Under the pieces are notes generated by a model, which was not told the DNA's origin, made no database searches, and saw only the letters and a program-made list of their open reading frames with translations. Below are positions 51,601 to 53,774 of a DNA stretch of 64,000 nucleotides, piece by piece (position 1 is the first letter of the stretch; every line of letters starts with the position of its first letter). The position numbers and the translations under genes were made by a program. Origin of the DNA: a virus (Duplodnaviria > Heunggongvirae > Uroviricota > Caudoviricetes); the IMG/VR virus record IMGVR_UViG_2563366911_000001, one strand, 5' to 3'.

Positions 51601-52119
51601 ATGAGTTATAAGGCAGGTGAGGTTATAATGAGAAAACTATTACTACCGTTATTATTTATGGCTGGGACTGTTAATGCAGCATCAAGCGTGAAGGAGATTT
51701 GTACCGATTATACGAAATACCTTGGGCACGTTTACGGCTTTGCTGTCAGTCAAGACGAATCCATGCGCAAGAAGTTACTGTCAGATATGAAACGTCTTAA
51801 ACTTTCTGAAGCGATGGTGCAGCAAGAACTATATAAAGTCGCAACCAACGAAAATGCTAAATATCAATATTCTCGCCTATTAAATCCCGACGCAAACGAG
51901 ATCAATCGAAGCACTTTCGATTATATGGTAAAGGCATGCGAAACCGCTCCTGATTTTGCTATCCCTAGCTGGGGTGTGCTGGTGGCGAGCAATGCCGTTA
52001 ATAAAGAAGATGTTGGAAGAAATGGCATTGACTCAATAAGAAATGCCCCAGGAATGCGCCATCAAAACGTACAGGGTACGCTTGAAGAACGAGCTAGGGG
52101 GCCGGGTGTAGCCCCATAA
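51601..52119 (+). CDS. Exported protein, 172 aa, carrying a Sit-like motif at its C-terminus
   Basis: Signal peptide MRKLLLPLLFMAGTVNAASS; C-terminal PGMRHQNVQGTLEERARGPG shares VQGTLEERARG with Sit; about 43% GC. Confidence 0.65.
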   Translation: MSYKAGEVIMRKLLLPLLFMAGTVNAASSVKEICTDYTKYLGHVYGFAVSQDESMRKKLLSDMKRLKLSEAMVQQELYKVATNENAKYQYSRLLNPDANEINRSTFDYMVKACETAPDFAIPSWGVLVASNAVNKEDVGRNGIDSIRNAPGMRHQNVQGTLEERARGPGVAP

Positions 52120-52207
52120 TTTAATAAATAATATTAAATTCTCTGGGCATAGTGGATCTAACAATATGGACTATGCCTATAATATCTAAAAACAAAAGGA
52201 TAAAAAT

Positions 52208-52714
52208 ATGAAATTGTATAAGTCATTGTATAGCTTTTTATTAATGTCCTCTTTTCTGCCATTATCAGCAATGGCAGGTTCTACCGTTTGGACGGTAGGA
52301 GGTGAGCAAGGGTGGAGAGAAATCTCTGCAACCAATGACGATGGTTACACAATTAACTTTTCTTGTGATGCTGGAGCAAGGGAAGGTTCAGAAGATCATA
52401 TCGCTGGAAGAAATTTGTATGTAAGCGGAGGAAAAGAGAATGCCGATTTTTCTACACGCGACACAATATCACGTAAAGCAGATGTAATTACTTTAATTGT
52501 TGGCCCGGATAGTTTTAATATTGGCACGCAAAACACTGCTCCTAATCGTAGGGAATGGTATTCATTTTGGAAGGCAGTGTCATCTACAAATGAAAAAAAC
52601 ATAGATGTATATATCGGTTCGAGTCGAATCACATCATTCACTCTGGATGGTATTTCCAGTATTTATACAGAAGCTAAAAATGACGGGTGTTTAAAACAAG
52701 ATGACGGTGAATAA
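52208..52714 (+). CDS. Exported protein, 168 aa
   Basis: Signal peptide LLMSSFLPLSAMAGS; about 38% GC. Confidence 0.65.
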   Translation: MKLYKSLYSFLLMSSFLPLSAMAGSTVWTVGGEQGWREISATNDDGYTINFSCDAGAREGSEDHIAGRNLYVSGGKENADFSTRDTISRKADVITLIVGPDSFNIGTQNTAPNRREWYSFWKAVSSTNEKNIDVYIGSSRITSFTLDGISSIYTEAKNDGCLKQDDGE

Positions 52715-53774
52715 AGTGAAGGATATTAAACACATTTCGCTTAACTCTAATAATAAAGCTGAAGGCACTGCCTTTTATGATTATTTAAATGAAATTAAAG
52801 GAGTGAGGCATAAAAAGATAAGTGGTTTATTAAATTCAGAATATATTTACAAGAGTTTAGTTAAACAGTTTGGAACAGTTAAAAAACAAGAATTAATTAA
52901 TGATTGTTTTCGAAAAGAACTTGAGTCTTTACCAAAAGTTACGAGAATTGCACACCAGTTTCGTGAACAAATGGTATTTTTACAGAAACAGTATCAGGCG
53001 GCTTTTCCCAGTGATGCAAATGAGCATATTCAAATAATTAAAAATCAAGCTGAAATGGCTATGCCGTTACGAAAACACTCAGAAGCCATTAATAAGATAG
53101 CTGGCTTAAATAATATGGAGGAGGTATTTAAAGAATTACACTCTAATATAAATTACAAAATTAAGATAAGCAAAGATATTAAAGAAGTAATAAAGCAGTA
53201 TAATAAAACAAGAAGTGTATTATTAGAGCAAGTAGTAGAGCTTGGGCTTGTTACTATCGCGCAGGCTTATGCTAATGATTCTATAAAATCAGCGCATACC
53301 GAAAGTGAGCATCAAAACAAAGGATTTAATAAATCTAGTTCGACGTTTTTTGATTCATTTAAGGCGCTTCCTTCTCCTATTCAGATCTTCCTTCTGTGGA
53401 TTTTTTATCAAGTGGTGCTTGGCGCTATAACTGATTATGCAAAAGAAAAGACATTATCGCAAATTTACAAGATGGAATCATATCTTCTATCTCTAAATGA
53501 GGATAAGCCAATATCTAAGCAAAAGCTAACACAAGAAAATAAAGATATTCAGTGGGAGGATCTTAATAATTTTAGAGCTATAACAGGTGATAACGTAAGG
53601 TTGCATGTCGGCCCTTCTTTAAATAGTGAAGTGATTGAATGCATTGGCAAAAACACAATTGTTGCTATTTTAGATAAGAAAGATCGTCAATGGCTTTACG
53701 TGCAGGTTAAATCAGGGGATGAGTTTATTACTGGTTGGATTACACGAACATACACAAAGCCTCTTAAGGCTTGA
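52701..53774 (+). CDS. Membrane protein with C-terminal SH3b-like domain, 357 aa
   Basis: TM segment IQIFLLWIFYQVVLGAI; C-terminal VRLHVGPSLNSEVIECIGKNTIVAILDKKDRQWLYVQV...GWI; about 33% GC. Confidence 0.65.
   Translation: MTVNKVKDIKHISLNSNNKAEGTAFYDYLNEIKGVRHKKISGLLNSEYIYKSLVKQFGTVKKQELINDCFRKELESLPKVTRIAHQFREQMVFLQKQYQAAFPSDANEHIQIIKNQAEMAMPLRKHSEAINKIAGLNNMEEVFKELHSNINYKIKISKDIKEVIKQYNKTRSVLLEQVVELGLVTIAQAYANDSIKSAHTESEHQNKGFNKSSSTFFDSFKALPSPIQIFLLWIFYQVVLGAITDYAKEKTLSQIYKMESYLLSLNEDKPISKQKLTQENKDIQWEDLNNFRAITGDNVRLHVGPSLNSEVIECIGKNTIVAILDKKDRQWLYVQVKSGDEFITGWITRTYTKPLKA

What the first reader, a model, noticed from the sequence alone, without database searches (positions are those of the whole stretch)
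51601..53774. AT-rich island of three exported/membrane proteins upstream of c4; one copies a 9-residue block of Sit
Three plus-strand genes with GC falling from about 43% to 33% sit divergently next to the c4/icd/ant immunity operon, where P1-type phages carry superinfection-exclusion functions. The first product (signal peptide, about 150-aa mature protein) ends in NAPGMRHQNVQGTLEERARGPG; Sit has NGRGMRREVVQGTLEERARGKG (DNA about 58894-58959) and a second GMR copy (SPGMRKNNV) a few residues later. The nine identical residues VQGTLEERARG are encoded by diverged DNA, so this is selected conservation rather than a recent duplication. A periplasmic decoy of a Sit segment is a plausible way to block incoming phage DNA injection. 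The third gene pairs a TM helix with an SH3b-like domain.
Basis: partly seen in the sequence, partly recalled or inferred. Interest (0 to 1): 0.75.

Follow-up and report, generated by a model that had tools for sequence, protein, structure and literature searches.

The report
Intact simA copies a tape-measure motif
In a P1-like phage-plasmid, the slot where phage P1 keeps its superinfection-exclusion (sim) genes holds three exported or membrane proteins, and the first is an intact version of P1's truncated simA whose flexible tail copies a conserved segment of the phage's own tape-measure/injection protein Sit; this suggests, but does not prove, that it blocks incoming phages by mimicry.

Summary
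The window is a P1-like phage-plasmid, and 51601-53774 fills the P1 sim slot, between the C1 operator/c4-icd-ant genes (minus strand) and the late promoter LPsit/pmgC-tub-pmgB-sit (plus strand).

- **ORF1** (probable start 51628, 163 aa) is the intact form of simA. P1's 52-aa SimA is only the N-terminal stub of this family (phrog_3933).
- **ORF1 structure:** a Sec-type signal peptide, a confidently predicted all-alpha domain with no structural relatives, and a low-confidence tail.
- **Shared motif:** the tail shares about 40 aa with Sit (BLASTP E=8e-8), including 11 identical residues, not 9. All 7 DNA differences in those 11 codons are synonymous.
- **Specificity:** the block lies just after Sit's transglycosylase domain and is among Sit's most conserved parts. 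In 50,697 phage and 72,556 plasmid records it appears only in P1-like Sit proteins and SimA relatives.
- **ORF2** is a YfjT-family periplasmic protein that is usually paired with simA.
- **ORF3** is a single-helix membrane protein with an SH3b domain.

Best reading: a prophage envelope cassette for superinfection exclusion, with SimA acting as a periplasmic mimic of the Sit block. Function is inferred, not shown. The island is a known variable region; I found no paper describing the SimA-Sit mimicry.

The parts
51249..51334 (-). C4 antisense RNA (context: immunity I operon c4-icd-ant, divergent from the island)
   Evidence: Rfam RF01695, 70.8 bits, E=4e-13. Homologous to the annotated c4 of P1.
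51514..51530 (-). C1 repressor operator Oc4 (AATGCTCTAATAAATTT on the minus strand)
   Evidence: Aligned with the annotated P1 operator at L001 1613-1629. Assigned by homology to the P1 annotation, not tested here.
51534..51563 (+). Predicted sigma-70 promoter PsimA (TTGTTT, 18 nt, TCTAAT), inherited from the P1 annotation
   Evidence: The region is nearly identical to P1, where PsimA is annotated at the matching position. This is a prediction only. My own consensus scan did not list it.
51628..52119 (+). simA, intact-type allele (163 aa; alternative upstream ATG at 51601): a secreted protein
   Evidence: phrog_3933 at E=1.7e-114. P1 SimA (52 aa) matches only profile positions 1-41. RefSeq calls it 'simA domain protein' or hypothetical. 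The family has 29 relatives, all from P1-like elements.
51628..51678 (+). Sec-type signal peptide of SimA (MRKLLLPLLFMAGTVNA|A)
   Evidence: Read from the sequence: basic n-region, hydrophobic core, V-N-A cleavage motif. N16 and A17 are invariant in the family. pLDDT is below 50 here. No signal-peptide predictor was run.
51685..52002 (+). SimA all-alpha domain (aa 20-125), with invariant Cys25 and Cys104
51991..52113 (+). Sit-like tail of SimA (aa 122-162). Core 11-mer VQGTLEERARG at 52069-52101; NAPGMR at 52042-52059
   Evidence: BLASTP against Sit: 21 of 41 identical, E=8e-8. phrog_2533 at E=2.8e-5. pLDDT 45-62, so predicted flexible. Non-synonymous divergence between lineages is 0.18-0.33 in the tail while synonymous sites are saturated.
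52208..52714 (+). ORF2: YfjT/YkfB-family secreted protein (168 aa; signal peptide ...LSAMA|G; Cys53 and Cys161)
   Evidence: phrog_3429 at E=1.6e-71. Its 95%-identical cluster representative carries Pfam PF27224 YfjT. RefSeq names it 'YfjT/YkfB family phage-associated protein'. A YfjT-family gene follows simA in Salmonella, Klebsiella and Cronobacter P1-like elements.
52701..53774 (+). ORF3: single-pass membrane protein (357 aa). No signal peptide; hydrophobic helix at aa ~226-246 (53376-53438); C-terminal SH3b domain at aa 297-351 (53589-53753). Overlaps ORF2 by 14 nt
   Evidence: Pfam SH3_3 at E=3e-6, 27.7 bits against a cutoff of 27. phrog_7086 at E=1e-225. Hydropathy scan. No homologue in 50,697 phage records. 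Present in P1-like plasmids in at least three allelic forms.
53757..53772 (+). Terminator-like hairpin at the end of ORF3
   Evidence: Consensus scan only.
53879..53897 (+). Late promoter LPsit (right-hand boundary of the variable slot; homology to every P1-like element resumes at 53868-53877)
   Evidence: Homology to the annotated P1 and P7 LPsit.
56095..59469 (+). sit: tape-measure/injection protein with an SLT domain (1124 aa), the source of the mimicked segment
   Evidence: Annotated Sit in P1-like phages. Described as tape-measure protein with an SLT domain at ~750-900 in PMC9024508.
58855..58965 (+). Conserved post-SLT block of Sit (aa 921-957) that SimA copies; core 11-mer at 58921-58953
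   Evidence: Among the most conserved 20-aa windows of Sit across 11 divergent P1-like Sit proteins (0.89-0.90). In E. coli elements the 22-residue segment GMRREVVQGTLEERARG.GTAT varies mainly at one position (K/R/N) and in one rare G-to-E allele, although the adjacent SLT module is swapped.
59083..59127 (+). Second half-motif in Sit (FDKLRNSPGMRKNNV), inside a 43-aa insertion specific to the E. coli P1 lineage
   Evidence: BLASTP against the SimA tail: 9 of 15 identical, E=0.002. Absent from the Salmonella, Klebsiella and metagenome Sit proteins aligned.

Best explanation
The island is an alternative cargo cassette in the sim (superimmunity) slot of a P1-like phage-plasmid. It encodes three envelope proteins, probably made from the prophage.

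Its first gene is the intact form of simA. SimA is exported to the periplasm. There a compact all-alpha domain carries a flexible tail that copies the conserved block lying just after the lytic-transglycosylase domain of the tape-measure/injection protein Sit.

Proposed mechanism (inferred). When another P1-like phage contracts its tail and releases the C-terminal end of Sit into the periplasm, resident SimA competes for whatever that Sit block must bind. The partner could be a host periplasmic or inner-membrane factor, the phage's own hub or tube exit, or other Sit copies. Tape-measure deployment and DNA entry then stall, giving superinfection exclusion by molecular mimicry. SimA is periplasmic and virion assembly is cytoplasmic, so the prophage's own morphogenesis would be spared.

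ORF2 (YfjT family) is the usual partner of SimA. ORF3 (membrane SH3b protein) is an added module. Both are presumed to be further envelope-acting functions.

Shown here: the location, the gene identities, the homology of the block, its specificity, its conservation, and the predicted disorder of the tail. Inferred: expression in lysogens, export, binding competition, and exclusion.
For: Location:
- The island fills the P1 simABC position, between Oc4/c4 and LPsit/pmgC. Flanks are 92.6% (left) and 97.5% (right) identical to P1.
- P1 sim causes superinfection exclusion (Devlin 1982 and Kliem & Dreiseikelmann 1989, as cited in PMC8546580).

Identity of ORF1:
- ORF1 is phrog_3933. P1 SimA covers only profile positions 1-41.
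- The P1/window breakpoint is at 51767, inside simA.

The mimicked block:
- Window pair: E=8e-8.
- A SimA relative against a Klebsiella-type Sit: 28 of 36 identical, E=1e-16.
- A Salmonella SimA/Sit pair: E=8e-8.
- The only significant non-self match of ORF1 in the whole window is Sit.
- The block is found only in P1-like Sit proteins in the phage and plasmid collections.

Selection:
- The 11-codon core has pS=0.76 and pN=0.
- Between SimA lineages, synonymous sites are saturated while tail pN is 0.18-0.33. Against the most distant relative, the tail is more conserved (0.28) than the folded domain (0.45).
- That relative (39% identical) still has NAPGMRHQAVKGSMAERARGDG.

Structure:
- The domain has pLDDT above 90 and the tail 45-62, as expected for a linear binding motif.

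Sit side:
- The block is one of Sit's most conserved parts. It stays essentially unchanged although the neighbouring SLT module is exchanged between types only 28-48% identical.

Precedent:
- Exclusion proteins that act on the tape-measure protein are known: T4 Imm (bioRxiv 10.64898/2026.03.06.709160) and HK97 gp15 (cited there).
Against: - There are no functional data for any SimA.
- In P1 the exclusion phenotype is attributed to sim (simC), and P1 does without SimA beyond a 52-aa stub. simABC are non-essential (PMC10695390).
- The promoter is only predicted, and expression in lysogens is unknown.
- The window allele lacks the roughly 55 C-terminal residues present in full-length relatives.
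- About half of the SimA lineages keep only NxxGMRxQ and replace the VxGTLxxRAxG half with a Cys-containing tail.
- The SimA tail does not track the resident Sit allele strictly (ESRARG or MERARG against AERAYG in Salmonella and Klebsiella elements).
- The partner of the Sit block is unknown, and Sit is unresolved in the P1 cryo-EM maps (PMC12810830).
- No defence-system model matches any of the three proteins.
Confidence: 0.42

Rival explanations
1. Shared envelope-targeting module without competition. The NxxGMR...RARG block is a short peptide that docks any protein carrying it onto the same envelope component, for example peptidoglycan or a host periplasmic protein. SimA uses it only for localisation. 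Its real activity, residing in the alpha domain, is some other lysogenic-conversion function unrelated to excluding P1-like phages.
For: - The block directly follows a peptidoglycan-cleaving domain in Sit (PMC9024508).
- The SimA domain is strongly conserved in its own right, with an invariant Cys pair.
- Neighbouring cargo in this slot is diverse envelope proteins: P7 has a lipoprotein plus a DUF5384 protein.
- ORF3 has a putative peptidoglycan-binding SH3b domain.
Against: - In the collections searched, the block occurs in no proteins other than Sit and SimA. It is therefore not a general anchoring module.
- Occupying the same site as an incoming Sit would still amount to competition.
- The slot's one characterised function is exclusion.
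Confidence: 0.22
2. Spackle-like enzyme inhibitor. In Sit the post-SLT block normally contacts or regulates the transglycosylase domain. SimA's copy of it binds the SLT domain of an incoming Sit and blocks local peptidoglycan digestion, as T4 Sp blocks the gp5 lysozyme.
For: - The block starts about 20-35 residues after the SLT module.
- Exclusion by inhibiting a virion lysozyme is an established mechanism (T4 Sp, summarised in PMC11436027).
Against: - The SLT module is swapped between types only 28-48% identical while the block stays essentially unchanged. That argues against intimate co-adaptation of the block and the enzyme domain.
- No structural similarity to known lysozyme or transglycosylase inhibitors was found.
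Confidence: 0.13
3. Evolutionary relic. The similarity is the trace of an old recombination between sit and simA, which lie 6.8 kb apart in the same orientation. It has no present function, and simA itself is decaying.
For: - simA is truncated in P1.
- It is C-terminally truncated in the window allele and frameshifted in some alleles (P0004, P0007, P0008, P0016).
- E. coli Sit carries an inserted half-motif resembling the SimA tail, which suggests past exchange.
Against: - There are zero non-synonymous against 7 synonymous changes in the core.
- The tail is retained in every full-length lineage, including the most distant one, while synonymous sites are saturated.
- 114 of 5,426 complete E. 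coli genomes keep the motif-encoding body at 95% identity or more.
Confidence: 0.08
4. The cassette serves the phage's own cycle, for example periplasmic helpers of lysis or of its own DNA entry, rather than acting against other phages.
For: - The genes lie directly upstream of the tail operon.
- ORF3 weakly resembles the SH3 part of phage amidases (phrog_1794, E=3.9e-5).
Against: - The slot is replaceable by unrelated cargo, and simABC are dispensable for plaque formation (PMC10695390).
- The island has its own predicted sigma-70 promoter and a terminator-like hairpin upstream of the late promoter.
- SimA made in a lysogen cannot help an incoming virion of the same phage except by interfering with it.
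Confidence: 0.05

Closest known systems
P1 simABC (superimmunity / superinfection exclusion; active protein Sim = SimC)
   Same: Same genomic slot, same flanks, same orientation, and the same predicted promoter and 5' end of simA. All products carry signal peptides. The slot's known phenotype is exclusion after adsorption.
   Different: P1 keeps only 52 codons of simA and carries simB and simC instead. The window has no simB or simC. SimC shares no segment with Sit. No phenotype has been reported for intact SimA.
T4 Imm and HK97 gp15 (exclusion proteins that act on the tape-measure protein)
   Same: Prophage- or phage-encoded envelope proteins that stop genome entry by interfering with the tape-measure protein of the incoming phage.
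   Different: Those are small inner-membrane proteins that bind the tape-measure protein. They have no sequence copied from it. SimA is a soluble periplasmic protein carrying a copy of a tape-measure segment. No sequence or fold relationship was found.
T4 Sp (spackle)
   Same: A periplasmic exclusion protein directed against the muralytic component of the incoming virion.
   Different: Sp inhibits the gp5 lysozyme by binding it. SimA has no detected similarity to it. The mimicked block lies outside the SLT module.
TP-J34 Ltp lipoprotein (Streptococcus thermophilus)
   Same: An exported, prophage-encoded exclusion protein (PMC3952083). From my own knowledge, its target was mapped to the tape-measure protein.
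   Different: It is a lipoprotein of a Gram-positive host with a different fold, and it does not copy any target sequence.
E. coli K-12 cryptic-prophage proteins YfjT (CP4-57) and YkfB (CP4-6)
   Same: ORF2 belongs to this family (Pfam PF27224 / RefSeq name). All are small secreted prophage proteins of unknown function.
   Different: ORF2 sits in a P1-like element, paired with simA. No function is known for any member, so the name adds no mechanism.

Membership tests
P1-type sim-slot cassette | Lies between the C1 operator/c4 and the late promoter LPsit/pmgC, transcribed away from c4 | tested here: met
   Flanks align to P1 at 51201-51767 and 53876-54200. C4 RNA and the operator were identified.
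P1-type sim-slot cassette | Confers exclusion of superinfecting P1 | not testable with these tools
   Needs plating and DNA-entry assays.
SimA family (phrog_3933) | Full-length match to the family profile | tested here: met
   E=1.7e-114, residues 1-162 on profile positions 1-162 of 213. P1 SimA matches only positions 1-41. There are 29 homologues, all in P1-like contexts where context could be read.
Sit / tape-measure family (phrog_2533) | Homology over the tape-measure body and SLT domain | tested here: not met
   Only residues 128-162 match profile positions 928-963 of 1130. ORF1 shares a segment with Sit and is not a member.
YfjT/YkfB family (Pfam PF27224), ORF2 | Match to the family model | tested here: met
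   Precomputed PF27224 on the 95%-identical cluster representative P0037 and on neighbours of simA in 6 other loci. RefSeq product name. The local Pfam copy gave no hit, presumably because the model is newer, so this rests on precomputed annotation.
Bacterial SH3 domain (Pfam PF08239 SH3_3), ORF3 | Score at or above the gathering threshold | tested here: met
   27.7 bits against a cutoff of 27, E=3e-6, residues 297-351. Marginal. RefSeq also names it an SH3 domain-containing protein.
PTP-like phytase (Pfam PF14566), ORF1 | Score above threshold and the catalytic Cys-x5-Arg loop | tested here: not met
   26.8 bits against a cutoff of 27. Neither Cys25 (CTDYTKY) nor Cys104 (CETAPDF) is followed by Arg at +6. 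Treated as a spurious helical match.
Known anti-phage defence proteins (PADLOC-DB) | Significant match to any model | tested here: not met
   Best hit E=0.036 (a methyltransferase model) for ORF1. None for ORF2 or ORF3.
Tape-measure-directed exclusion proteins (T4 Imm, HK97 gp15) | Physical interaction with, or competition against, the incoming tape-measure protein | not testable with these tools
   Only the sequence mimicry is shown.

The most novel reading that the evidence does not exclude
The SimA tail is a secreted decoy of a docking peptide that the P1 tape-measure protein uses during genome delivery. If so, it would be a superinfection-exclusion protein that works by copying a segment of the injection machinery, a mechanism I did not find described in the papers searched. 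The 36-41-residue peptide would also be a ready-made bait for identifying the still unknown periplasmic or inner-membrane partner needed for P1 DNA entry.
Probability: 0.3. Interest if true: 0.75.

Novelty: new variant of a known kind. Interest (0 to 1): 0.55.

Why it matters
- **P1 DNA entry.** P1 is a workhorse phage, yet how its DNA crosses the periplasm and inner membrane is unknown. What the C-terminal quarter of Sit does is also unknown, and Sit is unresolved in the cryo-EM maps.
- **A pointer to function.** A secreted prophage protein that preserves a copy of Sit's most conserved post-enzyme block marks that block as functionally important outside the cytoplasm.
- **A simple test.** Express SimA with and without the tail, plate P1, and select escape mutants.
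- **Reinterpreting simA.** P1's enigmatic 52-codon simA becomes the stump of a real gene that about a fifth of E. coli P1-like elements still carry.
- **Competition between elements.** P1-like phage-plasmids spread resistance genes, so cargo that governs competition between them matters for their epidemiology.
- **If no exclusion is found.** The finding then reduces to a curious shared motif in a known variable region.

Tried and rejected
- **Common linker or low-complexity motif: rejected.** tblastn at E<=10 found the block only in P1-like Sit genes. That was 21 of 50,697 phage records and 483 of 72,556 plasmid records, the latter including 7 unexamined Aeromonas records and one noise-level Polaromonas hit.
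- **Recent duplication or gene conversion in this genome: rejected.** 7 of the 11 core codons differ, all synonymously.
- **ORF1 as a PTP-like phytase: rejected.** The score is below threshold and there is no Cys-x5-Arg loop.
- **Remote sequence relatives: none outside the family.** The family profile found 12 hits among 1.84 billion proteins. The single outsider (P0049) is an unrelated repeat protein.
- **Word-index search with the Sit segment: uninformative.** It returned only 7 short fragments.
- **ORF3: no leads.** There is no phage-record homologue and no PDB sequence match.
- **Mobile-element signatures: none.** The island has no flanking repeats, so replacement is by recombination in the conserved flanks.
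- **Strict co-variation of the SimA tail with the resident Sit allele: not found.** Similarity is lineage-dependent but not one-to-one.
- **Lobocka et al. 2004 (PMC523184): could not be read**.
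Full report
**1. What is there**

The window is a P1-like phage-plasmid. The 2.5-kb region matches E. coli and E. fergusonii plasmids of 90-128 kb at 99.8% identity. Its flanks match phage P1 at about 96%.

Their GC content is 43.9%, 38.5% and 32.7%, against 47.4% for the window.

To the left, on the minus strand, lie:
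- ant and icd;
- C4 antisense RNA (Rfam RF01695, 51249-51334);
- its a1b1 target element (51402-51454).

The C1 operator Oc4 (51514-51530) and the region where P1 has its predicted simA promoter are nearly identical to P1. To the right, homology to every P1-like element resumes at 53868-53877, just before the late promoter LPsit and pmgC-tub-pmgB-sit.

The island therefore occupies exactly the slot that holds simA-simB-simC in P1 and upf50.5-upf50.0 in P7. The sim region has already been listed as one of eight low-GC, highly variable regions of P1-like phage-plasmids (PMC9603915). P1 sim is the classical superimmunity/superinfection-exclusion function (references 56 and 57 in PMC8546580).

**2. 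ORF1 is the intact form of simA**

ORF1 matches PHROG 3933 over its whole length (E=1.7e-114). P1's annotated 52-aa SimA matches only positions 1-41 of that 213-position profile. DNA homology between the window and P1 ends at 51767, inside the gene. P1 simA is therefore a stub left when simB-simC replaced the rest.

The breakpoints are nested:

| Compared element | Left homology ends at | Note |
|---|---|---|
| P7 | 51529 | just past the operator |
| P1 | 51767 | inside simA |
| vB_EcoM-Ro157c2YLVW | 52107 | six bases after the shared motif |

The right end is common to all. Full-length relatives are 179-246 aa. The window allele (163 aa) stops at ...RGPGVAP and lacks about 55 C-terminal residues present in the Ro157 type.

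The likely start is ATG 51628. It has a good Shine-Dalgarno sequence, gives a canonical signal peptide MRKLLLPLLFMAGTVNA|A, and is RefSeq's choice.

The family is small and confined:
- 29 homologues among 5.8 billion clustered proteins.
- 12 profile hits among 1.84 billion representatives, 11 of them family members or fragments.
- Every context I could read is a P1-like element of Escherichia, Salmonella, Klebsiella or Cronobacter, with simA in the same slot.

Among 5,426 complete E. coli genomes:
- 569 have the P1-like flanks;
- 114 carry the motif-encoding body of simA;
- 31 carry the three-gene form.

**3. The Sit-like tail**

ORF1 residues 122-162 align with Sit residues 921-957 (21 of 41 identical, 38.5 bits, E=8e-8). 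A second, shorter match falls on Sit 997-1011 (E=0.002).

The identical run VQGTLEERARG is 11 residues long. 26 of its 33 nucleotides match, and all 7 differences are synonymous (pS=0.76, pN=0). Searched against all six-frame ORFs of the window, Sit is ORF1's only significant non-self hit. The Sit-family profile (phrog_2533) also finds the tail (E=2.8e-5, and 1.2e-7 for the longer Ro157 allele).

The relationship recurs in other lineages:
- A Salmonella SimA against its own Sit gives E=8e-8.
- One SimA relative is 28 of 36 identical to a Klebsiella-type Sit (E=1e-16).

The motif has two parts:
- **Part A**, a hydrophobic residue then NxxGMRxQ, is present in essentially all SimA proteins.
- **Part B**, VxG(T/S)LxxRAxG, is present in about half of the lineages. 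In the others a Cys-containing tail replaces it.

The most distant family member (39% identical in the domain) still has NAPGMRHQAVKGSMAERARGDG. Between lineages, synonymous sites are saturated. Non-synonymous divergence in the tail is 0.18-0.33, which is no higher than in the folded domain (0.23-0.45) and lower than the domain in the most distant comparison.

AlphaFold2 predicts residues 20-125 as an all-alpha domain with pLDDT 91-97. The tail scores only 45-62. That pattern fits a conserved linear motif on a flexible tether.

**4. The Sit side**

Sit is the tape-measure protein, with an SLT domain at about residues 750-900 (PMC9024508). It is unresolved in the P1 cryo-EM maps, apart from low-resolution density inside the baseplate hub region (PMC12810830).

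In an alignment of 11 divergent Sit proteins, the roughly 60 residues after the SLT domain are among the most conserved stretches of the protein (0.89-0.90). Their pattern is TGLAFTPGxSPFxKGG...KF(M/L)NxxGMRxxxVQGTLxxRA(Y/R)GxGT.

Within E. coli elements, the SLT module (aa ~690-900) exists in two forms only 28-48% identical, with flanks at least 96% identical. The block that follows is essentially unchanged. It is therefore a separate, strongly constrained element.

The second GMR copy lies in a 43-residue insertion found only in the E. coli lineage. Its sequence (GIDGLFDKLRNSPGMRKNNV) resembles the first half of the E. coli SimA tail (GIDSIRNAPGMRHQNV). This hints at past exchange between sit and simA.

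**5. ORF2 and ORF3**

ORF2 (168 aa):
- It has a signal peptide ending AMA|G and two cysteines.
- It belongs to phrog_3429 and to the YfjT/YkfB family (Pfam PF27224 by precomputed annotation, plus the RefSeq name).
- A YfjT-family gene follows simA in almost all elements with an intact simA, including distant ones. SimA plus YfjT is thus the common, probably ancestral, pair.

ORF3 (357 aa):
- It overlaps ORF2 by 14 nt.
- It has no signal peptide, one hydrophobic helix (aa ~226-246) and a C-terminal SH3b domain just above the Pfam threshold.
- It is absent from all phage records searched.
- It occurs in several allelic forms in P1-like plasmids, sometimes with different upstream genes. It is therefore a separate add-on module.

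None of the three proteins matches a known defence model.

**6. Mechanism**

Shown:
- a secreted-type protein in the exclusion slot of the prophage;
- a selected, flexible copy of a conserved, Sit-specific segment that lies next to the part of Sit expected to work in the periplasm.

Inferred: SimA competes with the incoming Sit block for its partner and so stalls genome delivery. The periplasmic location would spare the prophage's own cytoplasmic tail assembly. I give this 0.42.

Rivals:
- The block is a shared localisation peptide and SimA does something else (0.22).
- SimA inhibits the SLT enzyme, as T4 Sp inhibits gp5. The SLT cassette swap beside an essentially unchanged block weighs against this (0.13).
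- A functionless relic. The selection pattern weighs against this (0.08).
- A helper of the phage's own cycle (0.05).

Caveats:
- P1 itself lacks SimA beyond the stub, and its exclusion maps to sim (simC).
- simABC are dispensable (PMC10695390).
- The window allele is C-terminally truncated.
- Half of the lineages lack part B of the motif.
- Neither expression nor a binding partner is known.

**7. Comparison with known systems and novelty**

The nearest known systems are:
- P1 Sim (same slot);
- the tape-measure-directed exclusion proteins T4 Imm (bioRxiv 10.64898/2026.03.06.709160) and HK97 gp15;
- T4 Sp;
- the TP-J34 Ltp lipoprotein.

SimA has no sequence or fold relationship to any of them. 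It differs in kind by carrying a copy of a target segment rather than a binder. I found no paper describing intact SimA or the SimA-Sit motif.

The island as such is a known variable region with 'hypothetical' annotations. The new elements are the reinterpretation of simA and the mimicry. I rate it a new variant of a known kind, with interest 0.55.

Noticed in passing
window 53882-53928: A strong RNA hairpin (-24.2 kcal/mol, z=-6.0 against shuffles) pairs the LPsit promoter region with the pmgC Shine-Dalgarno sequence (GAGG at 53920-53923; ATG at 53929). Transcripts starting at LPsit would lack the 5' arm. Read-through transcripts from the sim island would contain both arms, which could keep tail genes untranslated in lysogens.
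   Followed up: partly
window 58162-58794 (Sit aa ~690-900) versus L033 and other IMG/VR loci: The SLT (lytic transglycosylase) module of Sit is exchanged as a cassette among E. coli P1-like elements. The two forms are only 28-48% identical, with flanks at least 96% identical. Both forms occur with every sim-slot type.
   Followed up: partly
window 58978-59127 (Sit aa ~962-1011): A 43-residue insertion specific to the E. coli P1 lineage carries a second half-motif (GIDGLFDKLRNSPGMRKNNV). It resembles the SimA tail more than the first Sit copy does, which suggests past sequence exchange between simA and sit.
   Followed up: partly
L032 and L037 (IMG/VR loci), Sit motif: Two Sit alleles have Gly-to-Glu inside the otherwise invariant 11-mer (VQGTLEERAREKG), in elements that carry a standard full-length simA. 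These could be escape variants or could be neutral.
   Followed up: no
P0004, P0007, P0008, P0016 (SimA relatives): Several simA alleles are frameshifted in or just before the tail, giving unrelated C-termini of the same length. This looks like pseudogenisation or sequencing errors in some carriers.
   Followed up: no
L056 10681-11451: One IMG/VR element combines a full-length SimA (221 aa, divergent tail QNTQGALERRALG) with a SimC-like protein only 34% identical to P1 SimC. Intact simA and simC-type genes can therefore coexist.
   Followed up: no
(E. coli genomes): 11 of the 708 matching places for the region are on chromosomes rather than plasmids, and 2 of 115 for the simA body. P1-like sequence is occasionally integrated or mis-assembled.
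   Followed up: no
(plasmids): Seven Aeromonas plasmids match the Sit block. This suggests P1-like phage-plasmids with this Sit element exist outside Enterobacterales.
   Followed up: no
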